45,642 bases of DNA, from the IMG/VR virus record IMGVR_UViG_3300009073_000008, one strand, 5' to 3'. Shown piece by piece: positions 1 through 45,642 of the stretch. The stretch's first letter is position 1. Every line of letters starts with the position of its first letter. The stretch is from a virus. The position numbers and the translations under genes were made by a program. The notes beneath the pieces were generated by a model. That model saw only the letters and a program-made list of their open reading frames with translations, made no database searches and was not told the origin of the DNA.

Positions 1-123
1 TGCTGTTAGGTAGTGGGTTGCCATAAAAGAAATTACTTGCAAATGGCTCAAAGACTGTCTTTGCAAAGCCATATACCTTCTCACCCTTGTATGAAATGAG
101 CATCGGTACATCCAAAATGACAA
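1..123. repeat. terminal overlap identical to 45520..45642 (circular-contig closure)
   Basis: Base-by-base comparison: tgctgttaggtagtgggttgccataaaag...tccaaaatgacaa occurs at both window ends. Confidence 0.9.
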
Positions 124-1024: not shown

Positions 1025-1249
1025 TTATTTGGTTGCTAACTCTTCACGATCTCGCTTTGCGTTTAAATCCTCACCGCCTAGATTGCCTAGCTCCTGTCCT
1101 AGCCACATCTTTGCCTCCTGTAACTTGGTGATTGCTAATGCTCTCTCGCGTGAGCCCCCTGTAAAAGTATTGAGATTGTTCACAATCACTTGTATCTCTG
1201 CTCGTAATATCTTGCAAGCCTCTTGAGTCATTTCGTTATCTGGTGTCAT
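1025..1249 (-). CDS. hypothetical 74-aa helical protein (possible Acb2/Tad1-hairpin-like)
   Basis: ORF between TerL and portal. Motif SRERALAITKLQEAKMWLG resembles, from memory, the xLAxTKLEEAxMW hairpin motif of the Phage_gp49_66/Acb2 family. Not verified. Confidence 0.55.
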   Translation of the reverse strand: MTPDNEMTQEACKILRAEIQVIVNNLNTFTGGSRERALAITKLQEAKMWLGQELGNLGGEDLNAKRDREELATK

Positions 1250-2839: not shown

Positions 2840-3343
2840 TTAGTCAGTCATCTTGTCGATTGCATCATCAATCTCACCTTCACGTTCCTTGGTCAATGCG
2901 ACTGCGCCAGAGTGTTTTACTGCTAGAGTGTCGCCGTAACCCATACTCTTGCCCTGCGTCTTTGCAACAAACTTTGCTGTGTCCTGCGCCAACTTCCGGT
3001 CTGCCTTATAGTCATCAAGCGTGTCCTCTAGCACTTGCTCTGCCTTATCCAGTAGACGTGTCCTGCGCTCCATCGCGGTCTGAAACCACTCCGGGTTTTC
3101 ATACGTTATCTGGTCTGCATACTCCTCTGAGAACCCTGCTGCGATAGCGCTACCACGCGCATTTCCAAAGGTTTCACTCTGAGGATTGAGATATAACGAC
3201 AAAAACTCTACTTGCCGGGGGCTTAGTAGCTTCTCCGGTGGGCTCTCTTTGACGGCCTTTTTAGCTGCCTTTTTTACCACCTTTTTAGCTACCTTTTTAC
3301 GCGTAGCCTTTTTCTTTACTTTTCTTACTATTCTTTTTGCCAT
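2840..3343 (-). CDS. terS: terminase small subunit with Lys/Ala-rich N-terminal tail
   Basis: LSPRQVEFLSLYLNPQSETFGNARGSAIAAGFSEEYA matches the Terminase_2-type HTH pattern. Immediately upstream of TerL. N-terminus is MAKRIVRKVKKKATRKKVAKKVVKKAAKKAVKE. Confidence 0.8.
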   Translation of the reverse strand: MAKRIVRKVKKKATRKKVAKKVVKKAAKKAVKESPPEKLLSPRQVEFLSLYLNPQSETFGNARGSAIAAGFSEEYADQITYENPEWFQTAMERRTRLLDKAEQVLEDTLDDYKADRKLAQDTAKFVAKTQGKSMGYGDTLAVKHSGAVALTKEREGEIDDAIDKMTD

Positions 3344-3349
3344 TTTGAA

Positions 3350-3400
3350 ATAAAAAAAAGCAACCAGATGTCGCGATATACTCGCGTTATCTGATTGCTT
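3350..3400 (-). terminator. intrinsic terminator of late leader copy 1
   Basis: Minus strand: AAGCAATCAGAT-(19 nt)-ATCTGGTTGCTT, a 12-bp stem with one G-U pair, followed by TTTTTTTTATTTC. Ends just before the TerS ATG. Confidence 0.7.
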
Positions 3401-3453
3401 ATTTTTCGGATGTCAGCAATGGGTAGATTATGTGCTACCTCACTATTCAATTA
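3350..3453 (-). ncRNA. structured late-operon leader RNA, copy 1 (antiterminator/terminator switch candidate)
   Basis: Shares blocks with copy 2: TAATTGAATAG, a variable 5-bp hairpin, TTGCTGACAyCCGAAAAAyAAGCAA, then the terminator. Predicted start is about 7 nt after the -10 hexamer. Confidence 0.5.
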
Positions 3454-3458
3454 ACATT

Positions 3459-3487
3459 ATTATAGCACATAAGCCAACCCACAACAA
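3459..3487 (-). promoter_or_regulatory. sigma70-type promoter with extended -10 (late promoter 1)
   Basis: Minus strand TTGTTG-17 nt-TATAAT, preceded by TGc (TGCTATAAT). Confidence 0.55.
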
Positions 3488-3530: not shown

Positions 3531-3623
3531 CTACCAGTTACACGTCCAACATGTACCTTCCTCAATTTCTTTTTCGCTCTCAAGCTCACCGTTGCAAATC
3601 TTACATTTTGATTTCTTGCTCAT
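3531..3623 (-). CDS. 30-aa zinc-ribbon microprotein (below ORF-track cutoff)
   Basis: My translation: MSKKSKCKICNGELESEKEIEEGTCWTCNW, with CxxC-17-CxxC. Fills the gap between the 160-aa gene and late promoter 1. Confidence 0.3.
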   Translation of the reverse strand: MSKKSKCKICNGELESEKEIEEGTCWTCNW

Positions 3624-3672
3624 AATTACTATTTTCAATGATTATAAATATATAATGATATCCTCCATGTAC

Positions 3673-3700
3673 TGTATACCCATATTCCACTGTTTGTCAA
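3673..3700 (-). promoter_or_regulatory. possible promoter
   Basis: Minus strand TTGACA-16 nt-TATACA, directly after the stop of gene 3706..4188. Confidence 0.3.
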
Positions 3701-3705
3701 TATTT

Positions 3706-4188
3706 CTATGACCATTTTATATTTTGAACATGCCACACAATATCTTTATGGTTGCAATTCTGCATCACCTTATCAGCCTTGCCCTGGGTATACGTGACAC
3801 TTGTAACCTTCTTGCAATCATCACATTCTATATGATTTACCAATGATAAAGGTTTACTTTTATTAATCCAATCAGCACTATCCTTGCACCGCTCCACAAA
3901 ATCAGACATCCTATCCCAATCTCCTGCATTCAGTGTTTGTGGTTCTAGCATACGATAGCTTGTAAGATCACCCCAATCTTCCAAGCCTATAATATCTCTT
4001 ACATACTTTTTGAAGTAGTCATGCTGCTCATCATAAGTCTTGCCATTTTCCCACAGTGTCATCACTGAGGTGATACCGCTCATCATGCCAATGGCAATAT
4101 AACCATTACTCACCTCAAGCTCAATCCTTATAGCGTCACACGTCCGCGATCTTTTCATTGTGACCAAAACATCTTCTAGTGTTTTCAT
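3706..4188 (-). CDS. hypothetical 160-aa protein with C-terminal CxxC...CxH cluster (candidate late-gene regulator)
   Basis: Long ORF, last sizeable gene before late promoter 1. Contains ECDDCKKVTSVTYTQGKADKVMQNCNH. Confidence 0.8.
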   Translation of the reverse strand: MKTLEDVLVTMKRSRTCDAIRIELEVSNGYIAIGMMSGITSVMTLWENGKTYDEQHDYFKKYVRDIIGLEDWGDLTSYRMLEPQTLNAGDWDRMSDFVERCKDSADWINKSKPLSLVNHIECDDCKKVTSVTYTQGKADKVMQNCNHKDIVWHVQNIKWS

Positions 4189-5395: not shown

Positions 5396-5577
5396 TACTT
5401 CGTGATTAAAAAGATTGCTACCAATAGTGCGCCAATAAGTACTGAAAGGAAAAATGCTGCACCAAACCCCACGATTGAAAACAATCTGCGCTCATCCCGG
5501 TACTCATCACATTTCATGCAATGGCAACCCACGGTGTACTTCCAATGCCTACGATGCGATCTTCTCTCTTCTCCCAT
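5395..5577 (-). CDS. hypothetical 60-aa tail-anchored membrane protein
   Basis: Basic N-terminus with CHCMKCDEY, C-terminal TM segment FSIVGFGAAFFLSVLIGALLVAIFLI. Confidence 0.6.
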   Translation of the reverse strand: MGEERRSHRRHWKYTVGCHCMKCDEYRDERRLFSIVGFGAAFFLSVLIGALLVAIFLITK

Positions 5578-5878: not shown

Positions 5879-6052
5879 TTAGTTATTCTTTGGTTTTTTC
5901 TCCTCGTTCTCCATGATAATTCTGGGCTTCACATAAATAAGCATCCCTTTCTTGTTTTTCTTAAATTCAAGAATTAATTTGCCACGCATAAATCCCGATT
6001 TTTCAATCAGTACAATATGCTTTTGTATCTCTGCGTAGTCCTCATGTTTCAT
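5879..6052 (-). CDS. hypothetical 57-aa protein (below ORF-track cutoff)
   Basis: My translation: MKHEDYAEIQKHIVLIEKSGFMRGKLILEFKKNKKGMLIYVKPRIIMENEEKKPKNN. Fills the 5863-6068 gap. Confidence 0.5.
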   Translation of the reverse strand: MKHEDYAEIQKHIVLIEKSGFMRGKLILEFKKNKKGMLIYVKPRIIMENEEKKPKNN

Positions 6053-15071: not shown

Positions 15072-15140
15072 ATATCTTTTTGTAGTTGTATATCCTGCGT
15101 ACAGTGCATAAAACTACAGTGAATTGTTATAAGTAAAGAC

Positions 15141-15170
15141 AAAAAAACACTAGATTTTTTTTCTAGTGTT
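15141..15170 (-). terminator. intrinsic terminator downstream of the int-HTH cassette (bidirectional shape)
   Basis: Minus strand AACACTAG-aaaaaaaat-CTAGTGTT followed by TTTTTT. Confidence 0.65.
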
Positions 15171-15263
15171 TATATAGTTTTAGTTGTAGGCCACCTATGC
15201 GACCAATATATTTTTATGTTATGTCGTAGCTGTGTACCCACTTACTGCGACTATATAACTCAC

Positions 15264-15321
15264 TAGAGTATAGTCTTTACTCTACACGCCACCACGTGAG
15301 TGATGATTTATAGAGTAAAGA
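15264..15321. repeat. three copies of TAGAGTA(A/t)A (two direct, one inverted); candidate attP arm or operator sites
   Basis: TAGAGTA at 15264, TTTACTCTA at 15276 (inverted), TAGAGTAAA at 15311. The 11-bp arms TCTTTACTCTA / TAGAGTAAAGA flank a 26-nt spacer containing CACGTG. Confidence 0.6.
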
Positions 15322-15387
15322 TTAAATTGTTAAGGTCTCTTTTTTCCTAACTTATAAAAGTATAACATATGCACAAAATCGTGCAAG

Positions 15388-15591: not shown

Positions 15592-16530
15592 CTACGCCTC
15601 TTCTTGGTCAAGAAAGCCACGTGCTTTTGTCTCGAGCTTCTTATCATTGATTTGAGTGTACCTATAACTGGACTCCATATGCACGTGTCCAAGTACCAAT
15701 GAGATCAGAGAATTGTTAGCGCCTTTCTCTGTGAGATCATGTCCTTTATGGTGACGATAAGAGTGTGCGTTGACTGTCTGTTTCAACTCAGCTTTTACAG
15801 ATAGTACGCGCATCGCCTGTCCAAAGCCGGACACTTTTAATCTTCCTCCTGCACCAGACCCTTCAAAGTAATTGCCACCTACTCGCACAAACAAAGCATC
15901 ATCATCTTCTAAATCAACTCTCGCGTCAAAATACTCATCACGCAAATCACACCATTCTTGTATTGCACTAGACGTTTCTAACGTCCAAAAAACTTGTCTG
16001 AAAGGTTTAGTCCCTCGCGACTTCTTCGTTTTAATAACGGCTTGTCGCTCTTGCAGATTAACATCACAAACATCTAGTGAAAGTAGCTCTCCTATGCGCG
16101 CGCCAGTGTCCCACAATAAGCACAGTATTGCTTTATCGCGCGCCTTCCGGTACTTCGTAGCCTTACCACTTAGCTCTGCTAATGTAGTTAATAACTTCTT
16201 ATGCTCTTCCTCACTAACCACACGTGGTTGCGTGTAAACACGGCGCGGTATAGCCACGAGCTCCGGGTCAAATATATCAAAGTCTTTCATCTTGAGCCAT
16301 TTGAAAAGACCTTTTATTGCTGTCATGCGTGAGATCATGCCGTTAGGATGCCACCCTAATTCGTGCATCATCATTGAATATTCAGTTACCTCTCTGTCCG
16401 TCACTTCTTCAACATCACAGTTTTTCATGTATAGAACAAACTGCCGTATAAATTCGTATTCTTTCTTTGAGTTCTTGGTTCTCTGAGATCTCCAATCCAT
16501 GTATTCTTTGGTTGCTGTATGTAGTTTCAT
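15592..16530 (-). CDS. int: tyrosine recombinase / phage integrase
   Basis: TGARIGELLSLDVCDV (catalytic Arg), HSYRHHKGH (H-x-x-R), LGHVHMESSYRYTQ (His and Tyr). I prefer the ATG at 16530 (MKLHTATKEYMDW) over the track's TTG at 16734. Confidence 0.9.
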   Translation of the reverse strand: MKLHTATKEYMDWRSQRTKNSKKEYEFIRQFVLYMKNCDVEEVTDREVTEYSMMMHELGWHPNGMISRMTAIKGLFKWLKMKDFDIFDPELVAIPRRVYTQPRVVSEEEHKKLLTTLAELSGKATKYRKARDKAILCLLWDTGARIGELLSLDVCDVNLQERQAVIKTKKSRGTKPFRQVFWTLETSSAIQEWCDLRDEYFDARVDLEDDDALFVRVGGNYFEGSGAGGRLKVSGFGQAMRVLSVKAELKQTVNAHSYRHHKGHDLTEKGANNSLISLVLGHVHMESSYRYTQINDKKLETKARGFLDQEEA

Positions 16531-16568
16531 AAAATCAAAACCGCCAAGGGGTTCAGACCTCGGCGGTT
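16531..16568 (-). terminator. terminator-like hairpin abutting the int start codon (attenuator candidate)
   Basis: Minus strand AACCGCCGAGG-8 nt-CCTTGGCGGTT (11-bp stem), then TTGATTTT and ATG. Confidence 0.5.
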
Positions 16569-16672
16569 CATATATTCTATCACACTTTGTAAGTGCACTA
16601 AAAAATATGCCTCCGCAAGCTGAACCGTACTCTGTGTGAGTACCTTGCAGGTGTATTAAATTTGTACCCAGT

Positions 16673-16700
16673 AATATACACCATGCAGCAATATTGTCAA
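16673..16700 (-). promoter_or_regulatory. candidate int promoter
   Basis: Minus strand TTGACA-16 nt-TATATT, about 140 nt upstream of the int ATG. Confidence 0.5.
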
Positions 16701-16754
16701 GGTTCAACAAATGAGTATAACATATACATGCCAATGTGGCAAGTCCATGACTAC

Positions 16755-16792
16755 AAAATAAAAAAATCCTCAGCTCTTTTTGACTGAGGATT
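16755..16792 (-). terminator. intrinsic terminator ending late unit 2
   Basis: Minus strand AATCCTCAG-10 nt-CTGAGGATT followed by TTTTTTATTTT. Confidence 0.7.
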
Positions 16793-16836
16793 TTATGTTT
16801 ACATAGGGGTTTCCATATAGCTCTATTGACTATTTC

Positions 16837-26322: not shown

Positions 26323-26652
26323 TTATGCAATTTGTAGTCTCGCGGTTGTATTCGATGGAGCAATAAATGATATTGTTCGCCAGTTGATGGACTCATGTAT
26401 ATCAATTTCTACAGTTGCTCCGGCAGCAACTTTTATAGAACCTGTAGCATTTGCATCTACAGCATTACCATTTGCATCAATGCCAGATTCAAAATAAAGC
26501 TCACTATCAGCCTGTAAGACAATGCTTGGCGTAGCACCATTTACGCCACCACCTTTTGCGCCAAGCGTGTTCAAAAACTCACCTAGTTTTGTACCGTCAC
26601 CGCTCAAGATAGTCTCCAAAGACTGTGGACTTGTTGTTATAGAAATCTGCAT
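26323..26652 (-). CDS. hypothetical 109-aa virion-associated protein, first gene of late unit 2
   Basis: ORF directly after leader copy 2 and upstream of the fibre genes. Confidence 0.75.
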   Translation of the reverse strand: MQISITTSPQSLETILSGDGTKLGEFLNTLGAKGGGVNGATPSIVLQADSELYFESGIDANGNAVDANATGSIKVAAGATVEIDIHESINWRTISFIAPSNTTARLQIA

Positions 26653-26667
26653 ATATATTTTTTAGAA

Positions 26668-26719
26668 ATAAAAAAAAGCAACCAAACCTTGCATCCGGAG
26701 ATACTTTGTTTGGTTGCTT
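26668..26719 (-). terminator. intrinsic terminator of late leader copy 2
   Basis: Minus strand AAGCAACCAAAC-20 nt-GTTTGGTTGCTT (perfect 12 bp), then TTTTTTTTATTTC. Confidence 0.75.
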
Positions 26720-26774
26720 GTTTTTCGGGTGTCAGCAACGGTCTCTATAAGGCGGAGACTTCGCTATTCAATTA
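26668..26774 (-). ncRNA. structured late-operon leader RNA, copy 2
   Basis: Same block order as copy 1, with compensatory changes in all three helices. Confidence 0.5.
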
Positions 26775-26779
26775 CTAGA

Positions 26780-26807
26780 ATTATAGCATTATTTCTTATT
26801 TTTGCAA
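26780..26807 (-). promoter_or_regulatory. sigma70-type promoter with extended -10 (late promoter 2)
   Basis: Minus strand TTGCAA-16 nt-TATAAT, preceded by TGc. Confidence 0.6.
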
Positions 26808-26810
26808 AAC

Positions 26811-26840
26811 AAAAAACAGCCTTATATAGCTGTTTTTTAT
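26811..26840 (-). terminator. weak intrinsic terminator ending late unit 1
   Basis: AAAAAACAGC-8 nt-GCTGTTTTTT palindrome; on the minus strand the stem is followed by a T-rich run. Confidence 0.5.
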
Positions 26841-27401: not shown

Positions 27402-30400
27402 CTAATCATCTTGCACCTTACGCTTTGCAATATATGATGACCAACCCATCATCTGCCATAGATATTCTGGGTCTCCCTCGCGTACTGTTTTTACAATACT
27501 CTCTGTTTGGTCAACAAGTGTCTCAGCCGGCAATCCTGTTACATTTCCAATCGTTCCTCCTGCGCCACCTAACGCCTTCCAAATGTCAGCTTCCGTAATG
27601 TCTTTGTCGTTTACCAGCCTTACCATATCTGTAATATCATCGACTGCACCATACACTGCCATTTCATTACCAAAGTCTTTTTGTCCCATTGCTGTTCTGA
27701 TAATACTATCAAGACCAGTACCAACCAAAAATATTCCATTCATTGAGCCCAAGAGGCTTGCGCGCATCTGCCCTTCTTTTTCCCAATCAAAACCATTTGC
27801 AACAAATTGAAAAATGTTTGGTAGTAAAATGTGATAAATAAATATTGTTTTAGCATGTTGCTTTGGGTCTCCACGCTTCGCAATGATGTTACGTACCGCA
27901 TCAACTTCTTTTCTGAAATACTGATTTGGTGATGACAAAAATGATGTAAGCAGCTTTGAGACTGAATTTGAGCTCTGCCAAAAAGACTGCTCTGTTATAT
28001 CACCGGACTGTTGTGTTTGCTCTGTTGCCTTTTCAAATTCATATATCGCTTCCTCTTGTGTCTTTCCTTGGTCAAGATGATACTTGTATACAGACCAACC
28101 GCCCATGACAATAGCGCCCTCATCTCCAATTTTGATATTGAGCATCAGCTTATTAAGAAATGTTTGGCTACCAGACCACTTGGCAAATTCGTCTGAGTTC
28201 ATCGCATCTTTAATATCGCGCTCCATGTTTGAGCCACGTTCTTGTAAGAGCACTGAGCTCTCTTTCAGTGTTTTGTAGTTGTTTACAGGGTCTTTCCAAA
28301 AATCTGCATAGTTCTTAATGAAGTCCACAGTTGGTATGCTCTCAGCATATGCCGGGAAAGAAGTAAGCTGTTTGATAGCAATGGCCGGCTTTACCGCAAG
28401 CACGGCACGTGAAAAGTTAATACGCACCATATCAAGTTTCGCAATATTCTGTTTGCTACTCACTCCACCTTGTATGATGCCACTGATTTGATGGTCAAGT
28501 GATTTAAGTATTCCATCACCAAAATTTTGCTTAATTGCCTTGCGCACATCTGCATTACTGAAAGTAGAATTGAGCTTTTTGCTTGTATCAGCAAAAGCGA
28601 TAAAGTGCTCCATCTCAGCTACATGCTGCATAAGCACACCCATATCTGAGGCATCGCGCAATGGCTTCTTACTGCCAACACGGCTTTTCAATGAGCCCTT
28701 GGCTATGCTTTGACGCATTGATTGCTCATCCAAAAATGCTGTTATCGTTGCAAGTTGGTCACTTTCAACATCCCTACGTGCAATAGGACTATAAAACTCA
28801 TTAAATGGTAGTTCAACACCATACATATCTTTGTACACCTCGTTCACGCGTCCATGATAGTCGCGGTAGAAGTCAAGTTGTTTCTGCACAAAAATCTTAT
28901 CTTGTGTGCTAAGGACACCTTTGATCGCATCAACCATTTCGTCTGTATAGCCCATTGAAACAAAAAATGTCTCCTGTAGGGATGGGTCTTGCATCTCCAT
29001 GTATCTCTTGCGTAATTCTGCGCGAGACATCTTTATCTCAAACTTTTTTCCATAGGCATTTTCAAAAGTGCCAAGGTCTAACTCAATAGCATCCTCCGCA
29101 TGTTTTTGCATCGCTTCTTTCTGATCGAGACCATAAACCTCTGTAAATATATCTTGCACTTTTCTCAATGCTTCTGCGGTACTTTTTTTCTGTTCGTTCT
29201 TAGCAGCCAACATATCAAACTCCTGATTAAGAAAACTCTTTTTCGGGTCTGAGCCTTTGTCGTAAAATGACAATATGTCTAGCAAGTTGTCCCATCCAGT
29301 AAATGTCTTAAATGAGCTGATCGCGCCTCTCCTCGCTCTCTGCTTCCAATCCAAGCGCTTCTCTGCTGTAGAGTCATCAACAATACCATCGCCACCTGTA
29401 ATAACATTGACAATCTCCTCGTTACGTGCCATTGCCCCTTGATCAAATATCTCTTTGAAAAACTTGTTTGTAGATCGTCCATCATGTATCAAGCCCTCAA
29501 TACCTGTCAAGAGACTTGATAGCTTCTCTGGGTCTTTACTCAAGATAGCTGTGATAAACTTATTCTCAAAAACTTTGTCATCAGAAATAACACCTTGGTC
29601 TGCACTGTCAATATTTTTTATCACTAAATCTTCCATTGCCTCGTTTGTCATACGTGAAAGATCGCGCATCTTATCGAGCACGTTTTGTATCTCCGGGGTA
29701 AACTTGCCAACTGGCTTACCACCCTGCGTCTTTACTTGTGTTTTTTTCAAGTTCTTTTTGATCTTACCTTTAAGGTGACGCACCTGTGCCTCACTCTGCA
29801 ATCGGTCAATAAATGTGCGTGCAACCTCAATGTCCTTGGCATTTGTAGCATTTCTCACTGTTGCAAGCAATCGCTTCTTTTGCTCCGGGAAATCAGATAG
29901 CCGCTCATCCGCATAATCAGTAACAATTTTCTTCACTTCTTTTATCTCGTCACGCTCAATACGCATGTCCTCAATCTTCTCATCCTTTTTCTCCTTGGCA
30001 TCACTCACAGCCTCTTTCATCTTATCTCTGAGCTCATCCAAACGACTCAATACACGCTCTTTCTGCTCCTGTTTCTCCTGTGTCTTTTTTTGCTCCCGGC
30101 GTGCTGCTTCCTTGGCTGCTATAATCTCATGCGCTTTAATAAGAATACGTGTGTCCATCGACTTCTTTGTAGGCTCAAGCGCTTTGATCTTTTTACGTAG
30201 ACTAGCAACTTTTTTAGAGTCACCCTTCTTACGCGCATCCTTCAAAGACTCTCGCAATCCTGCAAGCTCTTTTCCATATGATGCAATCTTCTGAGCCTTA
30301 GTGATAGTCTCAACATCTTTTTTCTGATACTGAATACTGGCTGCTATGTCCTCTTTAGAGTATCTGCGTATCGGCATTTTATTTGCCTCATAATCATGCA

Positions 30401-33400
30401 TCGTAACATCTTGGCCTTCGATGCCATCAAGTAACATTGCATTAAGTCTTGCATCGTCTCCATCGCCATCATATAGTCCTGAGCCTACATCTGGTGATAT
30501 AAACTCATAATGGTCTGGCAACAAAGTCATTTCTAAAACAGCGCTATTGCCTCCGCCTGTAGCTCTATTCTTATCAAACTCAACTGCTGTAAAATACACT
30601 TCCTCGTTCATGTCACCCTTAAATCCATCTTTTAAGATTTTCTCGGCAACATCCTCACTTGTTTGATGATACATCTTAACACCATCTGGGTACTTCGATT
30701 TTAATATTTCGATAGAGTCCTCAAGTGTTAGCTCATCAGACTTATTCTCATACACCTCAGTACCAAGAACACTTTTAATATCCTTTTTTATCTTGAGCGC
30801 ATTTGCCGGTGATAGCACACGATTAAATAGCGCATCAACTTCTGACACTTTAAATGGTGTAAATACCTCTCTGAGCTTCGTGACAAGCCATGTGAGGTGT
30901 TGTTCTAGCTTAGACTTTGGCTCAATGTTCTTAACAAAGTGCTTTGCAAATTCCTCAGCAAGCACCTCCTCGCGCGCGACATTATCGCTTACACCGTGCT
31001 TCTTTTTGTATGCTGCAACTTCTTCCGGCATCTCTTTTGAAATAAGATCATACGCATCATTGCGCTCTTGCTCTGTAGCAACTAGATCATGGAAAGCATG
31101 AAACATCTCATGTGGCACTGTCGTTGCACGTGGGTTATCTTGAAATTTCACAATCGCATCAAAATATGAACCAAAAGCCTTGCCCCCGGCAACCTCTCTT
31201 GCGCTCTCAAGTGTCACACCCTTAGCAAAACCAAAGCGTTTAAATTGCTCTCTGGCCTGTTCATTCGTGATGACGGTATTAAACTCATCAGCCTTGCGCT
31301 GCATCTGTTCTTTTGGTAGTGTGCTGTACTCTGAAAAACGGTTGGCAATACCTGCTTCAACCATCGGCTTAATTTGTTTTTCAAAAACTTCCTTGCTCCA
31401 ATAAGCAGATCGCGTGAAATATGCTGTTTGACCACGACTGATCGCTACGTACTGCTCAATCATGCGCGCTGTCACTTCCACCTTAGATGCGTAGTATTTC
31501 CTTCTTGCTGAGGTGTTTATCATGTCACTGTAATTATTCATGCTGCGAGCAAACTCTTTCAATCGGTAGTTGTCAAACAACATTGTGTCAACTTCATAAT
31601 CAAGCATGTGGCCAAGCTCATGTGCCATAATTGTGTTCACTTTCTCAACAACCATCTTGCCATCTTTCTTGCCCTTAAAGCTCTCAGTGCCACCAACTGA
31701 AACACTTATACCATCATCTGTCTTTCTATATAGCCCTGCGACACCATTCATCAAAAATGGATTTTTGCCATTCAAATGCACAAGCACCCAACGCTTATCA
31801 GCACCAAGTCTTTCCATATCAAGATTAAGAGCTTTGGAAAACTCTACAACGCCATCAGCTATTTCATCAACTTGCTTTTTCGTTAAAGGTTCTCCATCTT
31901 GTCGCTTCATTCCAATGTTTGTCCGTCCGTCCGGGTCTGTGATAATCCTTGCATCATCAACACCAAAAGACGTAGCAAGCCCCTTTTCGTACCGCTCACG
32001 TGAGTTTACTGCTGTAGAAAAAGACTTGTCGTATGCAACAACTTCCTCAGGGTACTTGTAACCTTTTGATATATCCTTCTTTACACGCTGCTTGTATACC
32101 TTCTCTGCAAAGCCTTCCTCTTTTACCTTCGCAACAAAAGCATCTTTATGTGTACCAAACTGTGTTTTTCTTTTCCTTGTACTTCCCTCAAAAGCAAAGT
32201 CCATTTTCTTTTTACCACTATTCTCAACAATCATGTTTGTCATCTCGACATTTTTCATGTCTGGCAAGTTTTTATCATAATACTGCTGTGAGCTTGCGCT
32301 AACATCCTCACCGCTATTGAGCGCTTTTTCAATCCTCTCCATGCTATTAAAAAAGCCTTTGCTTCCCTGTATAAACCGTGCGCCACCTTCTCTTTTCTCT
32401 GCCTTTTCGATAAATGCCAAGACATCGTCAAACTCTTGCTTGACTGCTTGTATTCCTGCCTCTGGTGTCATCTGCTGTTGTGATATGCGGTCTGGTGCAA
32501 TACGCTTAGGGCCAACTACTTTTGACTCAGTGGCAATATCAACATTTGCCGGCAATGTTTCCACGCTCTGAGCGGTCTGCTTCTTTACTTCATTGCCTTG
32601 CTTAATATTAGACTCTAAAACCTCATTCTTCGCTTTGTTATCACCTTTTCTAACTTCATCGCTTGGCAAACCAAAGTCTACATCCGCGGCACTATAAGTA
32701 TCTTTCGCTGCAACATCTGACTGCTCAACACTCCCCACCGGCGCATCCGTCACGTTCTCTTGTATTTCTTCCCGGGGCTTCAATGATGCAACCTCAGCAC
32801 GCGATATGATTTCTTTTTTTATCTCTGCCAATAGCTCTATCTGTAGCACTGAGCCCTCTTTTGGGGTTTCACCATTCCTGTACATCTCCATCACTTTGTT
32901 AAATAGTGGCCTTTTGCGCAAGTGATCTGATACCCATGATGGAAATGTGGACTTTACAGCCTCAAAATTTAGATCATTATTCTCATAATTCTCTGTCATC
33001 TGACGTGAACCTGCCTCAGCTTGCTCCATTTCTGTGAAAACTTGCGCCTCAGCTTCGCTATAGTCTACAACCTGTGGGCTTATTTCTCTATCATCAGCTG
33101 TTTCAACCTCATTGTTTTCTATTTTCGCAACCATCTCCTCGATCTTTTGTTGCTGTTCTGGTGAAAACTTTGATACATCAAGCGACTCATCACCAAAAAC
33201 AGGGTCAATCTCACCCTCAAGACTTTGCGCATCCTCTTCAATCATAAGAGCATTAATACCACCCTTGCCAGCTTCAAGCTGCAATGCTTCTTTCTCACCT
33301 TCGATTAACGCATTTTCTTTACGTGTCTCAATGAGCTTGAGCGCAACACTCTCAATCTGCGGTGATAAGTCTGCACTAGACATGATCTGCGCGTACGCAT

Positions 33401-34898
33401 CTTTACGTACACGGTCTGATACACCCTCTTGCACCTGCACAGTATCATTCTTTGCAAGGTAGTCAACAACTTCATCAACCTTCTTTGTTCGCGCATCAAC
33501 CTCTTCTTGTACACTCACCACGATCTCTTGGTCAAGATCATTCATTGCGTCAATATCATTCTCAAGGTCTTGCAAGTCTGCAAAAGACATATCTTTCATA
33601 TTGCGCTTTGCTTCTTTGACATCACCTTGTGCAAAGCTATCACGCGCTTTTTGCTCTGCTTCTGATACTGTCGGCTCATCCTTTTGCCCTCCACCATCCC
33701 TATCAACCGTTGTATTTGCTGCATCAGCAATACCGCCGGCCAGTCCAAAAGTAAGCGCACCACCAATAGCGCCCTTTATCGTACTCTCAATCACGCCCTC
33801 GCTAATCTCAATATCTGGGTCTATCTCGTAAAGCTTTGCCATGAGATTTTGTGTAGCGTTCTGCAATCCCTCAGTAGCACCCTCGCCCGCACCTGTAAGC
33901 AACATTTCTTTTGCAATGGCATCCATCATACCAACAATGGATTTCTTTCCTGCCGGGGTACTTGTAAACTTTTTAAGTGTTTTCATTGGTATAACACTCT
34001 CAAGCGCACCGGCTGCCACGCCATATGTTGTTGACGCTTTATTTATCATCTCAATATCCTCATCGCTCAATTCCTCAACTGAGATACCTTTTCTCTCTGC
34101 AAGAATACTTTTATACTCCTCTGCGGATGACCCTTTTTCTATAGCGCCCATTACAGCCGTAGATGCTGCATATGCAAGCTTTGGGTTCTTGGTGGCTGCA
34201 AGTGTTGCGCCACTAGCTGCAAGTCCCGGGACGGTACTACCAAGCGCCTCTGCTGCAATATGCGCGCCTGTACTCATAAAACCTCGCTCATCCTCTGGTA
34301 TTGTATTTTGCATGTAGTCCTGCGCACCACCATCATAAAATCCCTCAACTGCTTCACCACCTGCCTCTGTGCGCTCTCCTGCCTTATTCTGTGCATTTAG
34401 CCAATTCTCTTGTGCCTCAGACTCAATCACTTGAAACTCTTCTTGCGATAGCTTGCCACGCTCAACTCGGCCACGGTCAACTTTTAACTGATTTTCTAAG
34501 CCCTCTTTAAAAGCGCCTTTAAGCTCATCTGATTGACCAGACTCACCGGCAACTTCCAACGCACTACCTGCACTAGAAATACCACCAGAAAGAGAACCCA
34601 TGTATGTATTCTTTACACTCCCCAAGGTTTTCATTGCACCTGCAATTTTACCCGGTTGCTTCTCGGGTATACCACCAGTAGCATCAAGAACATTAAAACC
34701 ACCCCAAGGGTCGTTACTCTTACCAGACGTTGCAACCTTACGCATCTTCTCTCGCTGCGCCATTGCTTGAGCCATTCGCTCCTTTTTTATGTCCTCCAAA
34801 GTCCTCTCTTCTCTTTCATCCTCAGTAGATAGCGTATTGTAGAGTACTGATTTCATTTTTTTGTTGTTAGTCTTTGCTCTCAAATTGGTGTCCGGCAT
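27402..34898 (-). CDS. 2498-aa polyvalent virion (ejected/internal) protein: two zincin HExxH modules, ART-like module, coiled coil, large C-terminal domain
   Basis: Uninterrupted 7.5-kb ORF. MAHELGHMLDY (H1093), VPHEMFHAFHD (H1263), KMYHQTSEDVAEKILKDGF...VYFTA...LEMTL (from residue 1409), and a K/E-rich coiled coil. An alternative ATG at 34856 would remove the 32-nt overlap with the upstream gene. Confidence 0.9.
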   Translation of the reverse strand: MPDTNLRAKTNNKKMKSVLYNTLSTEDEREERTLEDIKKERMAQAMAQREKMRKVATSGKSNDPWGGFNVLDATGGIPEKQPGKIAGAMKTLGSVKNTYMGSLSGGISSAGSALEVAGESGQSDELKGAFKEGLENQLKVDRGRVERGKLSQEEFQVIESEAQENWLNAQNKAGERTEAGGEAVEGFYDGGAQDYMQNTIPEDERGFMSTGAHIAAEALGSTVPGLAASGATLAATKNPKLAYAASTAVMGAIEKGSSAEEYKSILAERKGISVEELSDEDIEMINKASTTYGVAAGALESVIPMKTLKKFTSTPAGKKSIVGMMDAIAKEMLLTGAGEGATEGLQNATQNLMAKLYEIDPDIEISEGVIESTIKGAIGGALTFGLAGGIADAANTTVDRDGGGQKDEPTVSEAEQKARDSFAQGDVKEAKRNMKDMSFADLQDLENDIDAMNDLDQEIVVSVQEEVDARTKKVDEVVDYLAKNDTVQVQEGVSDRVRKDAYAQIMSSADLSPQIESVALKLIETRKENALIEGEKEALQLEAGKGGINALMIEEDAQSLEGEIDPVFGDESLDVSKFSPEQQQKIEEMVAKIENNEVETADDREISPQVVDYSEAEAQVFTEMEQAEAGSRQMTENYENNDLNFEAVKSTFPSWVSDHLRKRPLFNKVMEMYRNGETPKEGSVLQIELLAEIKKEIISRAEVASLKPREEIQENVTDAPVGSVEQSDVAAKDTYSAADVDFGLPSDEVRKGDNKAKNEVLESNIKQGNEVKKQTAQSVETLPANVDIATESKVVGPKRIAPDRISQQQMTPEAGIQAVKQEFDDVLAFIEKAEKREGGARFIQGSKGFFNSMERIEKALNSGEDVSASSQQYYDKNLPDMKNVEMTNMIVENSGKKKMDFAFEGSTRKRKTQFGTHKDAFVAKVKEEGFAEKVYKQRVKKDISKGYKYPEEVVAYDKSFSTAVNSRERYEKGLATSFGVDDARIITDPDGRTNIGMKRQDGEPLTKKQVDEIADGVVEFSKALNLDMERLGADKRWVLVHLNGKNPFLMNGVAGLYRKTDDGISVSVGGTESFKGKKDGKMVVEKVNTIMAHELGHMLDYEVDTMLFDNYRLKEFARSMNNYSDMINTSARRKYYASKVEVTARMIEQYVAISRGQTAYFTRSAYWSKEVFEKQIKPMVEAGIANRFSEYSTLPKEQMQRKADEFNTVITNEQAREQFKRFGFAKGVTLESAREVAGGKAFGSYFDAIVKFQDNPRATTVPHEMFHAFHDLVATEQERNDAYDLISKEMPEEVAAYKKKHGVSDNVAREEVLAEEFAKHFVKNIEPKSKLEQHLTWLVTKLREVFTPFKVSEVDALFNRVLSPANALKIKKDIKSVLGTEVYENKSDELTLEDSIEILKSKYPDGVKMYHQTSEDVAEKILKDGFKGDMNEEVYFTAVEFDKNRATGGGNSAVLEMTLLPDHYEFISPDVGSGLYDGDGDDARLNAMLLDGIEGQDVTMHDYEANKMPIRRYSKEDIAASIQYQKKDVETITKAQKIASYGKELAGLRESLKDARKKGDSKKVASLRKKIKALEPTKKSMDTRILIKAHEIIAAKEAARREQKKTQEKQEQKERVLSRLDELRDKMKEAVSDAKEKKDEKIEDMRIERDEIKEVKKIVTDYADERLSDFPEQKKRLLATVRNATNAKDIEVARTFIDRLQSEAQVRHLKGKIKKNLKKTQVKTQGGKPVGKFTPEIQNVLDKMRDLSRMTNEAMEDLVIKNIDSADQGVISDDKVFENKFITAILSKDPEKLSSLLTGIEGLIHDGRSTNKFFKEIFDQGAMARNEEIVNVITGGDGIVDDSTAEKRLDWKQRARRGAISSFKTFTGWDNLLDILSFYDKGSDPKKSFLNQEFDMLAAKNEQKKSTAEALRKVQDIFTEVYGLDQKEAMQKHAEDAIELDLGTFENAYGKKFEIKMSRAELRKRYMEMQDPSLQETFFVSMGYTDEMVDAIKGVLSTQDKIFVQKQLDFYRDYHGRVNEVYKDMYGVELPFNEFYSPIARRDVESDQLATITAFLDEQSMRQSIAKGSLKSRVGSKKPLRDASDMGVLMQHVAEMEHFIAFADTSKKLNSTFSNADVRKAIKQNFGDGILKSLDHQISGIIQGGVSSKQNIAKLDMVRINFSRAVLAVKPAIAIKQLTSFPAYAESIPTVDFIKNYADFWKDPVNNYKTLKESSVLLQERGSNMERDIKDAMNSDEFAKWSGSQTFLNKLMLNIKIGDEGAIVMGGWSVYKYHLDQGKTQEEAIYEFEKATEQTQQSGDITEQSFWQSSNSVSKLLTSFLSSPNQYFRKEVDAVRNIIAKRGDPKQHAKTIFIYHILLPNIFQFVANGFDWEKEGQMRASLLGSMNGIFLVGTGLDSIIRTAMGQKDFGNEMAVYGAVDDITDMVRLVNDKDITEADIWKALGGAGGTIGNVTGLPAETLVDQTESIVKTVREGDPEYLWQMMGWSSYIAKRKVQDD

Positions 34899-44614: not shown

Positions 44615-45642
44615 TTATTGTGGTTGCTGTTGTGGTGCTCCTTGCTGCGCTGCTTCTGGTGGCAATGGCGGTGGCGCATCAAGGTTGTACTTACTTACAT
44701 CGTCACCATTATCCCGGGCAAACTCTGTGAATATAGCTTTTTGGTTCGTTCCAAATATCTGAGGAAAGAATTGAGCCATCTGTGCCAACTTCCTATCCTG
44801 CTTGGCCTGTGCAAGCGACTCCTCTTGGTCTCCAATACTCGACTGCTCCACCAAAACATCAAAATGCCACTCATCAACATACTTGTTACGTATGGCCATA
44901 AACTCTTCACTGCGCCCCTCCTTCTCACTCTCGCGCTCCTTATCGTCCATATCTTCACGTGTTGGCATCTTCGCATCATCATCCACCATCTCGATATTGA
45001 GTGTGCCAGTGTTGCCATCTGATAGCTGCGCGTCTGTTACTGCAAAGAATTTACTCTTAACCTTCGGGTCTGCATCACTCAAAGCCATCTCAATAGCCGG
45101 CTGTGTGTAGAACGTGAGGATGTTTGCAATACGTAGGATAGTCTTTTGCTTCCACAAATTTGCTTGAAACATCGTAAATACTCCTGCCAGCTTCTTTGCG
45201 CGCTCTGCTGCGATGATAACCTCACGTGCTGTATTGCCTGTTCCTTGCACTCCCTGTTGGTTCTTGTCCACTGAGGTAAGGTCTAAGCCCTGTGAGATAA
45301 GGTTTACCATTGATAGCTCGCTCTGATTGACGCTAGATAGTGGCATCTCCTTCACTTCATTGACGCTACTAACATAGATAACAGGGTCACGTGGGTCATT
45401 CTCCCAGTCCAAAGCATCCCTATTGGCCTGTCCTGCGATTAACTGCCTGTCCAAAGTCCTGTATGTCTTGTCCATCAACATGTTATAGAGGCTGTTGATG
45501 ATGTCCTGCTCGCCCATCATGCTGTTAGGTAGTGGGTTGCCATAAAAGAAATTACTTGCAAATGGCTCAAAGACTGTCTTTGCAAAGCCATATACCTTCT
45601 CACCCTTGTATGAAATGAGCATCGGTACATCCAAAATGACAA
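44615..45642 (-). CDS. portal protein, C-terminal part (continues upstream into 1015..1; last 123 nt duplicate the window start)
   Basis: Open frame reaches the window end. The track's M at 45634 is a TTG inside the continuous frame. Gln/Pro-rich C-terminus. Confidence 0.75.
   Translation of the reverse strand, partial: VILDVPMLISYKGEKVYGFAKTVFEPFASNFFYGNPLPNSMMGEQDIINSLYNMLMDKTYRTLDRQLIAGQANRDALDWENDPRDPVIYVSSVNEVKEMPLSSVNQSELSMVNLISQGLDLTSVDKNQQGVQGTGNTAREVIIAAERAKKLAGVFTMFQANLWKQKTILRIANILTFYTQPAIEMALSDADPKVKSKFFAVTDAQLSDGNTGTLNIEMVDDDAKMPTREDMDDKERESEKEGRSEEFMAIRNKYVDEWHFDVLVEQSSIGDQEESLAQAKQDRKLAQMAQFFPQIFGTNQKAIFTEFARDNGDDVSKYNLDAPPPLPPEAAQQGAPQQQPQ
45520..45642. repeat. terminal overlap identical to 1..123
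   Basis: Direct comparison of both window ends. Confidence 0.9.

What the first reader, a model, noticed from the sequence alone, without database searches (positions are those of the whole stretch)
26653..26807. Second copy of the leader switch splits the virion genes into two units; three helices differ by compensatory changes
Copy 2 (TTGCAA-16 nt-TGcTATAAT ... terminator ... ATG of gene 26652) shares these exact blocks with copy 1:
- TGCTATAAT
- TAATTGAATAG
- TTGCTGACA
- CCGAAAAA
- AAGCAA
- GGTTGCTTTTTTTTATTTC

Where the copies differ inside predicted helices, both strands change together:
- Hairpin 1: GGTAG/CTACC versus GTCTC/GAGAC.
- Antiterminator: ATTGCT/AGCAAT versus GTTGCT/AGCAAC.
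- Inner terminator stem: CAGAT/ATCTG versus CAAAC/GTTTG.

This pattern indicates selection on RNA structure rather than on a DNA-binding site.

The element sits just after a terminator (26811-26840) that closes the head/core operon. It precedes the fibre, tailspike, lysis and moron genes. Both late units would therefore be gated by the same RNA device.
Basis: seen in the sequence. Interest (0 to 1): 0.8.

Follow-up and report, generated by a model that had tools for sequence, protein, structure and literature searches.

The report
Duplicated terminator-ending leader before phage late genes
An uncultured temperate phage carries two diverged copies of the same promoter, ~100-base leader and terminator cassette, one in front of each virion-gene block, so both blocks can only be made by reading through a terminator; this is a familiar control logic, but the RNA sequence matches no described family.

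Summary
The window is a complete ~45.5 kb temperate phage. It holds exactly two copies of a cassette on the minus strand, at 3344-3487 and 26653-26807.

Each cassette has, in order:
- a sigma-70-type extended -10 promoter
- an 11-nt box, TAATTGAATAG
- hairpin 1
- a conserved block, TTGCTGACAYCCGAAAAAYAAGCAAYCA
- a -24 kcal/mol terminator ending 9-18 nt before the first late gene

The conserved blocks are 100% identical. The segments between them are randomised, yet still form hairpin 1 (chance about 0.5%) and the terminator (four double-sided changes).

The proposed antiterminator helix exists in both copies but rests on a single covarying pair. It is weak (-4 to -6 kcal/mol) and no better than shuffled sequence.

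There is no Rfam match, and no homologue of the full leader in about 200 related or other phage loci. Only the promoter, box and terminator layout recurs, in the two nearest relatives and a few other phages.

Late genes must be expressed by read-through. My best reading is a factor-gated attenuator, with a processive Q/N-like mechanism as the main rival. The effector is unidentified, because the adjacent genes are ORFans.

In passing, the same promoter-plus-box precedes many bacterial riboswitches.

The parts
26811..26838 (-). Intrinsic, bidirectional-looking terminator that ends the packaging/head operon. It lies 3 nt upstream of the copy-2 promoter.
26780..26807 (-). Copy-2 promoter: TTGCAA (26802-26807), a 16-nt spacer, then TG-c-TATAAT (26780-26788).
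   Evidence: 10 of 12 consensus positions, with TG
26764..26774 (-). Box TAATTGAATAG, 5 nt after the -10 element. This is the initial transcribed sequence if host RNA polymerase starts about 7 nt after the -10. It is identical in copy 1, and its first 10 nt are kept in the nearest relatives.
26741..26759 (-). Hairpin 1 of copy 2: GTCTC, a 9-nt loop, GAGAC. The structure is kept and the sequence is unrelated to copy 1.
26713..26739 (-). Conserved block and candidate antiterminator (H2): GTTGCT, 15-nt loop GACACCCGAAAAACA, AGCAAC. Its 3' arm is the start of the terminator's 5' arm.
26665..26719 (-). Copy-2 terminator: a 12-bp lower stem (26708-26719 with 26676-26687), an apical 5-bp stem (26700-26704 with 26691-26695), then TTTTTTTTATTTC.
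26323..26652 (-). First gene of the tail/lysis unit (109 aa, no family hit). It is followed by a 485-aa beta-helix protein, a 1613-aa tail-fibre-like protein, an M23 peptidase and an SNase-like protein. The unit ends at the terminator at 16763-16794.
3459..3487 (-). Copy-1 promoter: TTGTTG (3482-3487), a 17-nt spacer that includes the TG, then TATAAT (TGCTATAAT at 3459-3467).
   Evidence: read from the sequence; the scan did not list it because the -35 matches only 3 of 6 positions
3443..3453 (-). Box TAATTGAATAG of copy 1.
3422..3439 (-). Hairpin 1 of copy 1: GGTAG, an 8-nt loop, CTACC.
3394..3420 (-). Conserved block and candidate antiterminator of copy 1: ATTGCT, loop GACATCCGAAAAATA, AGCAAT.
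3347..3400 (-). Copy-1 terminator: 12-bp lower stem, apical CGCGA/TCGCG stem, then TTTTTTTTATTTC. The ATG of terS is at 3341-3343.
2840..3343 (-). terS, the first gene of the packaging/head unit. The unit continues with TerL (1259-2830) and the portal gene, which starts near 1013 and wraps through the 123-bp terminal overlap.
3706..4188 (-). 160-aa ORFan with a C-terminal CxxC...CxH motif, in the position that Q occupies in lambdoid phages. It is a candidate trans-acting factor by inference only.
3531..3623 (-). 30-aa CxxC-13-CxxC zinc-ribbon ORF between the 160-aa gene and copy 1, with a TTGACA-18-TACAGT promoter-like site at 3671-3700. It is a candidate RNA-binding factor by inference only.

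Best explanation
The two elements are paralogous late-gene leader cassettes that act as termination checkpoints.

Shown:
- Each cassette has a strong host-type promoter, a leader of about 100 nt, and a -24 kcal/mol intrinsic terminator.
- The run of eight U ends 8-18 nt (U-rich tail 3-12 nt) before the first late gene. No other promoter lies in between.
- Every late transcript therefore has to pass the terminator. This holds whether it starts at the cassette promoter or, for copy 1, upstream of it.

Inferred:
- By default the terminator forms, and a short leader RNA is released.
- Later in infection a trans-acting factor recognises the sequence-conserved block UUGCUGACAYCCGAAAAAYAAGCAAY. The factor is most likely phage-made. 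Candidates are the ORFans just upstream of copy 1.
- The factor holds the block as the H2 hairpin. The AGCAAY segment then cannot nucleate the terminator stem, and RNA polymerase runs into the virion genes.
- Hairpin 1 is a structure-only module, perhaps a pause hairpin, a spacer or a 5' stabiliser.
- A second weak pairing, UAGYGA with UUGCUG, could sequester the 5' arm of H2 and bias the default state towards termination.
- Because the mechanism is local, each late unit needs its own copy. This explains why a terminator closes unit 1 directly in front of copy 2.
For: Anatomy:
- The promoter, box, hairpin 1, H2 and terminator occur in the same order in both copies.
- No other promoter-like site lies between terminator and ATG.
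- The window holds exactly two copies.

Conservation pattern:
- The blocks are 100% identical while the N5 spacer, hairpin 1 and the terminator apex are randomised. This points to old paralogues under purifying selection rather than a recent duplication.
- The lower terminator stem and the H2 region are conserved in sequence, whereas the apex only keeps its pairing. A stem constrained by a second pairing or by a binding factor would look like this.

Structure:
- Chance for the hairpin 1 slot is about 0.005.
- The terminator has 4 double-sided and 2 single-sided changes, with 100% of cells paired.
- H2 and the terminator are mutually exclusive in both copies. The flanking pair covaries.
- Before the 3' arm is made, H1+H2 is the minimum-energy fold.

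Genome logic:
- The layout is lambdoid: integrase, Erf, YqaJ, DnaB, NinB, RusA, ORFans, the cassette, then terS.
- Unit 1 ends at a strong terminator 3 nt before the copy-2 promoter.
- The scans show no convincing internal terminator in either late unit.

Relatives:
- L377, L001, L163 and L075 show the same topology, a short hairpin whose 3' arm is the start of the terminator stem. It is individually significant in L163 (3/300) and L075 (6/300).
Against: - H2 is weak (-4.3 and -6.4 kcal/mol) and has a 15-nt loop.
- In both window copies, pairing of the terminator 5' arm with upstream sequence is no better than in shuffles.
- Only one pair covaries. That change is equally consistent with the terminator (U.G to C-G) and with a symmetric DNA site.
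- No RNA-binding antiterminator domain (CAT/PRD, ANTAR, HutP and similar) was found in the roughly 50 proteins scanned.
- The H2 block was found nowhere else, so there is no independent comparative test.
- The only leader element conserved in relatives is the box next to the promoter. That fits promoter-proximal loading of a factor at least as well.
Confidence: 0.4

Rival explanations
1. Processive antitermination loaded at the leader, of the lambda Q / PR'-tR' type or the N/nut or put type. A phage factor, or the leader RNA itself, modifies RNA polymerase near the promoter. The box TAATTGAATAG, or the H2 hairpin, would be the loading site. The modified enzyme then ignores the leader terminator and later ones. 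The overlap of H2 with the terminator would be incidental.
For: - The cassette sits where PR'-tR' sits in lambdoid phages: after NinB/RusA and an ORFan, and directly before terS.
- It combines a strong constitutive-looking promoter with a nearby terminator.
- The box at a fixed 5 nt from the -10 element is the only leader element conserved in the nearest relatives L377 and L001. It also occurs in other phages whose leaders end in terminators.
- Q families are mutually unrelated, so an ORFan Q is plausible (PMC6606751).
- The 160-aa ORFan has a Cys/His motif.
- H1 and H2 are separated by one nucleotide, as I recall for the two stems of HK022 put. This is from memory and was not tested.
Against: - Pfam, PHROGs and PDB sequence searches find no Q, N or AlpA homologue.
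- The structure model of the 160-aa protein is unusable, with pLDDT 34.
- No TAnnnT -10-like pause element is shared by the two initial transcribed regions (read).
- No conserved DNA lies between -35 and -10, where QBEs sit.
- A processive enzyme would run through the terminator at 26811-26838, which would make the second cassette largely redundant.
- L377 and L001 share an ~80-aa protein upstream of their box, and the window lacks it. The box is therefore not the site of one conserved phage protein.
Confidence: 0.3
2. An unregulated, leaky attenuator or insulator. The cassettes set expression levels by constitutive partial termination, and timing comes from promoter control or genome copy number. 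The conserved blocks would serve promoter strength and terminator efficiency, through an A-tract, stem and U-tract.
For: - CCGAAAAA pairs with the U-tract in the minimum-energy fold. This extends the terminator and makes it bidirectional (the plus strand also scores 32-33 bits).
- H2 is not stronger than chance.
Against: - Terminators of -24 kcal/mol with eight U residues are expected to be efficient.
- The block TTGCTGACAY and the exact lower stem are not needed for termination, yet they are invariant while neighbouring positions are randomised.
- In a prophage, constitutive leakage into 32 kb of virion and lysis genes would be harmful.
Confidence: 0.12
3. A metabolite- or ion-sensing riboswitch that couples late gene expression to the state of the host.
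For: - The layout has a P1-like pairing (UAGYGA/UUGCUG), an antiterminator and a terminator, which resembles an OFF riboswitch.
- In bacteria the same promoter-plus-box precedes many riboswitches.
Against: - No Rfam family matches, even at E up to 10.
- The part enclosed by P1, which is hairpin 1 and its loop, is not conserved in sequence between the copies. It cannot be a ligand pocket.
- The conserved single-stranded stretch is only 15 nt.
Confidence: 0.05
4. The box is the promoter of a phage-encoded sigma factor, like the phiEco32 gp36 promoters (tAATGTAtA, with the start 6-8 bp downstream). Late transcripts would then begin at hairpin 1, and the sigma-70-type promoter upstream would be a separate unit.
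For: - TAATTGAATA matches tAATGTAtA at 8 of 9 positions with one inserted base (PMC8948821).
- TerL relatives carry SU10/phiEco32-type capsid and adaptor domains.
Against: - No sigma-like protein was found in the window.
- The box keeps a fixed 5-nt distance from a canonical -10 element in unrelated contigs and in bacteria.
- The terminator would still block such transcripts.
Confidence: 0.05

Closest known systems
Lambdoid late control region (PR' promoter, tR' terminator, Q antiterminator; the 6S leader RNA)
   Same: - A constitutive-type promoter is followed by a nearby intrinsic terminator, directly upstream of the late genes.
- The region lies after the nin/RusA region.
- Late expression requires read-through.
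- A short terminated leader RNA is expected.
   Different: - There are two cassettes instead of one, and the second sits behind a terminator.
- No Q homologue was found.
- No shared -10-like pause element or QBE-like conserved DNA lies between -35 and -10.
- The conserved elements lie in the transcribed leader, and one of them overlaps the terminator stem.
Protein-stabilised antiterminator hairpins that overlap a terminator (BglG/SacY RAT, ANTAR targets, HutP and similar)
   Same: - A short hairpin whose 3' arm is the 5' arm of the terminator.
- It is too weak to compete unless something binds it.
- The loop or bulge sequence is conserved.
   Different: - The phage has no CAT/PRD, ANTAR or HutP-type protein.
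- The loops are 8-9 nt and 15 nt, not the dual hexaloops of ANTAR targets or the RAT fold.
- The host and the effector are unknown.
Lambda/P22 N-nut and HK022 put leader RNAs
   Same: - A linear conserved element is followed by a hairpin with a conserved purine-rich loop.
- GCUGACA...AGC resembles P22 boxB (GCGCUGACAAAGCGC), and GAAAAA resembles the lambda boxB loop. Both comparisons are from memory.
- There are two adjacent stems close to the promoter.
   Different: - The loop is 15 nt, not a GNRA-like pentaloop.
- The leader has no boxA (GCUCUUUA).
- The elements precede late operons, not early ones.
- No N-like gene was recognised.
phiEco32 gp36-dependent middle/late promoters (tAATGTAtA)
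   Same: - An A/T-rich element of 9-10 nt upstream of the late genes.
- The phage group shares SU10/phiEco32-type structural modules.
   Different: - Here the element sits 5 nt downstream of a canonical sigma-70-type -10 element.
- No phage sigma factor was found.
- A terminator follows the element.

Membership tests
Any Rfam family (riboswitches, leaders, phage RNAs) | Score at or above the family's gathering threshold | tested here: not met
   One search gave 0 matches in the whole window. at E up to 10 returned only sub-threshold chance hits, mostly to the terminators.
Lambdoid Q-dependent late antitermination | Promoter followed by an intrinsic terminator directly upstream of the late genes | tested here: met
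   terS and TerL were identified.
Lambdoid Q-dependent late antitermination | A Q protein of the lambda, 21 or 82 family encoded upstream | tested here: not met
   The 160-aa, 231-aa and smaller upstream ORFs have no Pfam, PHROG or PDB sequence match. HMMER against 1.8 billion representatives found no relatives. The AF2 model has pLDDT 34, so no fold test was possible.
Lambdoid Q-dependent late antitermination | A -10-like (TAnnnT) sigma-dependent pause element in the initial transcribed region, plus a Q-binding element in the promoter | tested here: inconclusive
   TAnnnT occurs only in copy 1 (TAATCT, in the hairpin 1 loop) and not in copy 2. No DNA is conserved between -35 and -10. The conserved box could be a non-canonical site.
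Lambdoid Q-dependent late antitermination | Processive read-through of downstream terminators | not testable with these tools
   This needs transcription assays. The genome shows a terminator (26811-26838) between the two cassettes and no convincing internal terminators.
N/nut antitermination | boxA (GCUCUUUA-like) followed by a boxB hairpin with a 5-nt GNRA-like loop | tested here: not met
   Read: there is no boxA-like string, and the H2 loop is 15 nt.
Metabolite riboswitch | A sequence-conserved aptamer core enclosed by the switching helix | tested here: not met
   The segment enclosed by the P1-like pairing, which is hairpin 1 and its loop, shares no sequence between the copies.
Protein-mediated antiterminator/terminator switch (RAT/ANTAR type) | An antiterminator hairpin sharing a strand with the terminator | tested here: met
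   AGCAAY belongs to both helices in both copies.
Protein-mediated antiterminator/terminator switch (RAT/ANTAR type) | A cognate RNA-binding regulator (CAT/PRD, ANTAR, HutP, PyrR and similar) in the same genome | tested here: not met
   No such domain was found in any protein scanned. The host genome is unknown.
phiEco32-type phage-sigma promoter | A single tAATGTAtA element plus a gp36-like sigma gene | tested here: inconclusive
   The box matches at 8 of 9 positions with one indel. No sigma gene was detected, although gp36-like sigmas are very divergent.

The most novel reading that the evidence does not exclude
The leader is the founding member of an undescribed class of phage cis-regulatory RNA. 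In this reading it is a small antiterminator hairpin with the conserved loop GACAYCCGAAAAAYA, read by a new ORFan-encoded RNA-binding protein. The protein could be the 30-aa zinc ribbon or the 160-aa Cys/His protein. The hairpin gates both virion operons locally. The adjoining promoter-proximal box TAATTGAATA would be a general, so far undescribed initial-transcribed element that accompanies attenuation leaders, including riboswitches, T-boxes and PyrR sites across bacterial phyla as well as phage late leaders.
Probability: 0.15. Interest if true: 0.8.

Novelty: new variant of a known kind. Interest (0 to 1): 0.5.

Why it matters
If the leader is a factor-gated attenuator, it is a compact RNA device of about 100 nt. 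Here it controls about 32 kb of virion and lysis genes from two points.

Three things would make it worth further study:
- Its sequence matches no described family, and its effector would be new.
- It offers a tractable pair of natural variants. The same blocks are combined with different hairpin 1 and different terminator apex, which suits dissection of what is read as sequence and what as structure.
- The box shared with bacterial riboswitch leaders, if it survives proper controls, would point to a promoter-proximal signal tied to attenuation control in general.

If the mechanism turns out to be Q-like, it adds a fourth, unrelated Q-type system with duplicated loading sites.

Tried and rejected
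Searches that found nothing:
- Rfam at gathering threshold and at permissive thresholds found nothing.
- Megablast of 20 kb against GenBank phages gave no match. TerL by tblastn gave only hits below 30% identity.
- The exact H2-block pattern in IMG/VR gave 0 hits.
- The covariance model run over 199 phage loci gave only a marginal hit, L075 at 23 bits.
- No tRNA gene, and no trans RNA complementary to the conserved blocks, exists in the window.

TerL relatives:
- 160 TerL-related loci were collected from IMG/VR and JGI metagenomes. More came from Logan, NCBI and ENA.
- Most have no such leader before terS.
- Only L001/L186 and L377 keep the promoter, the box and a terminator.

Candidate regulators:
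- The 160-aa protein has no homologues and a poor model.
- The 57-aa DUF2292-like ORF has no homologues and no PDB match. Its Pfam matches are below threshold, so I dropped this lead.

Ideas rejected:
- Leader peptide. A TTG-started frame runs through copy 1, but it stops after 8 codons in copy 2.
- Antisense ORFs. The plus-strand ORFs of 57 and 59 aa are similar only where the DNA blocks are conserved.
- A motif CUGAY..CCGAA that seemed to recur in box-bearing leaders. It did not hold up: a direct scan returned only L170 and its close relative L356, plus chance coding hits.
- Bacteroidota-type promoters (TAnnTTTG). Only one intergenic match was found.
- The Cobalamin Rfam consensus does not contain the box.

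Full report
**What the window is.** The 45,642-nt window begins and ends with the same 123 nt. It is therefore a complete genome of about 45.5 kb, either circularly assembled or terminally redundant. G+C is 42.6%. Nearly all genes lie on the minus strand. Read in the direction of transcription, the order is:
- integrase (15592-16734)
- a small HTH gene
- Erf, a YqaJ exonuclease, NinB, a DnaD-like loader, a DnaB helicase and RusA
- a run of small ORFans, then a 231-aa ORFan, a 160-aa ORFan and a 30-aa zinc-ribbon ORF
- copy 1 of the element
- terS, TerL, a 74-aa gene, the portal gene (which wraps across the window ends), a decoration-like protein, the major capsid protein, a 911-aa virion protein and a 2498-aa protein
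- a terminator at 26811-26838
- copy 2 of the element
- a 109-aa protein, a 485-aa beta-helix protein, a 1613-aa tail-fibre-like protein, an M23 peptidase, an SNase-like protein and a terminator at 16763-16794

The phage is temperate with a lambdoid-style layout. It has no close cultured relative.

**Check of the observation.**
- The two copies share TGCTATAAT, TAATTGAATAG, TTGCTGACA, CCGAAAAA, AAGCAA and TGGTTGCTTTTTTTTATTTC exactly.
- The 5 nt after the -10 element, the hairpin 1 slot and the apex of the terminator are essentially unrelated.
- This block pattern points to old paralogues under selection, not a fresh duplication.
- A covariance model built from the pair scores them at 125 and 118 bits. 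It finds no third copy in the window.

**Structures.**
- Hairpin 1 is GGTAG/CTACC in copy 1 and GTCTC/GAGAC in copy 2. Its position is the same to within one nucleotide. Shuffles of either slot form such a terminal 5-bp hairpin in only 0.4-0.5% of trials. One DNA-binding protein could not read two unrelated sequences. Selection on a folded single strand is therefore the sensible reading.
- The terminator has 16 pairs in common columns, all of them paired in both copies. Four are changed on both sides and two on one side. It is worth -24 kcal/mol and is followed by eight U residues.
- The proposed antiterminator (H2) has six pairs closing a 15-nt loop. Five pairs are invariant, and the outermost covaries from A-U to G-C.
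- I estimate the chance of that one double hit at about 0.07, given four substitutions in the 32-nt block. The same U-to-C change also improves a G.U pair in the terminator.
- H2 is worth only -4.3 and -6.4 kcal/mol.
- When the region upstream of the terminator arm is shuffled, pairing as good as the real one arises in a third or more of trials.
- I also noticed a further pairing, UAGYGA with UUGCUG. It encloses hairpin 1 and competes with H2, and the single difference there (U.G to C-G) is compatible with it.

In sum, two helices are well supported. The switching helix is plausible but unproven.

**What can be said firmly about function.**
- The run of eight U of copy 1 ends 8 nt before the terS ATG (the conserved U-rich tail UUUUUUUUAUUUC ends 3 nt before it). 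That of copy 2 ends 18 nt before the next ATG (tail 12 nt).
- Nothing promoter-like lies in between.
- Any transcript of either virion unit must therefore read through a strong terminator.
- The cassettes are termination checkpoints whatever the detailed mechanism. This matches the logic of lambda PR'-tR', and the genomic position (after NinB/RusA and before terS) is the same.

**Local switch or processive antitermination?** These points favour a local switch:
- AGCAAY belongs to both H2 and the terminator in both copies.
- The lower terminator stem and the H2 block are frozen in sequence, while the apex is free to vary. This suggests a second constraint on those nucleotides.
- Unit 1 ends at a strong terminator 3 nt before the copy-2 promoter. 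A processively modified polymerase would ignore that terminator.
- Neither late unit shows a convincing internal terminator that would call for processivity.

These points favour a Q/N-like mechanism:
- the lambdoid position of the cassette
- the weakness of H2
- the comparative picture described next

No Q, N, AlpA, sigma, CAT/PRD or ANTAR protein was found. The two ORFs just upstream of copy 1 have no relatives at all, and the structure model was unusable. I put the local, factor-stabilised attenuator at 0.4 and the processive reading at 0.3.

**Relatives.** TerL has hundreds of metagenomic relatives, but none above 61% identity. I looked at 160 loci from IMG/VR and JGI and five more from other assemblies.
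- The full leader occurs in none of them.
- The two nearest relatives, L377 (61%) and L001/L186 (60%), do keep TTGACA-17-(-10)-5 nt-TAATTGAATA. In both it is followed by a shorter leader and a terminator before terS.
- Both also have a homologous ~80-aa protein immediately upstream, which the window lacks.
- The same -10-plus-box pattern picks out further phage contigs with a -35 element, hairpins and a terminator in front of structural genes: L162/L181, L163/L164, L170/L356 and L197.
- Two composition-matched control 10-mers gave 4 and 1 promoter-like hits. None of these had a consensus -35 followed by a terminated leader; one control hit without a -35 (L394) is followed by a terminator-like hairpin.

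The conserved unit across the group is therefore promoter, box and terminator. The middle of the leader, including H2, is lineage-specific, as are the adjacent small genes. This fits a generic role for the box and a lineage-specific factor-and-target pair in the middle. The numbers are small.

**An unexpected side observation.** The same 24-nt pattern was scanned over one genome per bacterial species.
- 45 of the 122 matches have a TTG -35 element at the right distance.
- Of the 37 such loci that I scanned with Rfam, 16 have a known attenuation leader or small RNA starting within a few nucleotides of the box on the same strand. These are T-box, FMN, TPP, SAM, lysine, Moco, six cobalamin riboswitches, a PyrR site and a tmRNA.
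- The pattern selects near-consensus constitutive promoters, and such promoters are typical of attenuator-controlled operons. Some enrichment is therefore expected.
- If the enrichment survives controls, the box is a general promoter-proximal signal that accompanies attenuation leaders. That would argue that the phage leaders are read by host machinery as attenuators.
- The box also resembles the phiEco32 gp36 promoter element tAATGTAtA (PMC8948821). However, no phage sigma factor was found, and the fixed distance from a canonical -10 element argues against that reading.

**Comparison with known systems and novelty.** In logic, the element works like the lambdoid late leader or like protein-stabilised antiterminator switches. 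It is not a demonstrable member of either:
- The defining proteins and sequence signatures were tested and not found.
- The leader matches no Rfam family.

I classify it as a new variant of a known kind. The duplication with structural covariation is a useful natural experiment. The effector and the role of the box are the open questions.

**Verdict.**
The antiterminator switch is plausible but rests on one covarying pair.
- Interest is 0.5.

Noticed in passing
window 3443-3453 and 26764-26774; genome loci L205-L324 (e.g. L226:1010-1180, L232:4542-4797, L217:2387-2512, L271:3144-3275): The pattern of extended -10, 5 nt and TAATTGAATA lies directly in front of many bacterial attenuation leaders across phyla: T-box, FMN, TPP, SAM, lysine, Moco, cobalamin, PyrR and tmRNA. 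This holds for 16 of the 37 promoter-like genome hits that I scanned. No genome-wide control was possible, so the degree of enrichment over ordinary strong promoters is unknown.
   Followed up: partly
window, all genes (e.g. upstream of 3343, 26652, 42793): Only 8 of 52 genes have a Shine-Dalgarno-like motif, and the upstream regions are A/T-rich. This resembles Bacteroidota-type translation signals. Yet the intergenic promoters look sigma-70-like with an extended -10, and only one intergenic TAnnTTTG exists. The host phylum is unclear.
   Followed up: partly
window 1-123 and 45520-45642: There is an exact 123-bp terminal overlap, and the portal gene runs across it. The contig is a complete circular assembly or has direct terminal repeats.
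   Followed up: yes
window 1025-1249 (minus strand): The 74-aa gene between TerL and the portal gene carries a precomputed Pfam hit to PF24729 (Acb2_Tad1_hairpin). It may be an anti-CBASS or anti-Thoeris nucleotide sponge, in an unusual place inside the packaging operon.
   Followed up: no
window 3531-3623 (minus strand): A 30-aa ORF, MSKKSKCKICNGELESEKEIEEGTCWTCNW, with CxxC-13-CxxC lies right upstream of copy 1. It has its own TTGACA-18-TACAGT site at 3671-3700. From memory, it is reminiscent of the Mu Com zinc-finger RNA-binding activator. No family hit passes threshold.
   Followed up: partly
window 15072-15387 (minus strand): A 316-nt non-coding stretch follows the small HTH gene. It has a TTGCAC...TATACT promoter-like site and a perfect bidirectional terminator at 15145-15171. 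It could be a small RNA gene, or an origin or immunity region.
   Followed up: no
L377:297-542 and L001:1022-1255: Homologous ~80-aa proteins (62% identity over the C-terminal 47 aa, with the motif DNTVLYEFGG) sit immediately upstream of the box-bearing late leader in the two nearest relatives. They are absent from the window. They are candidate lineage-specific late regulators.
   Followed up: partly
L162:7974-8162, L163:9268-9462, L164:3599-3799, window 5879-6052: Small ORFs of 57-66 aa with a DUF2292/YezD-like motif lie near box-bearing leaders in several phage contigs. Their Pfam matches are below threshold. The window's version has no homologues in the databases.
   Followed up: partly
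window 27402-34898 (minus strand): A 2498-aa protein at the end of the head operon has no PHROG hit. It may be an ejection or internal virion protein.
   Followed up: no
L229 (5509-bp contig; box promoter at 14-37 and 5468-5491) and L252:2-1250: The box-bearing promoter with a terminated leader also occurs in other small mobile elements. One is a 5.5-kb contig that carries the motif at both ends. The other is a tRNA-integrase island in an Anaerolineaceae MAG.
   Followed up: no
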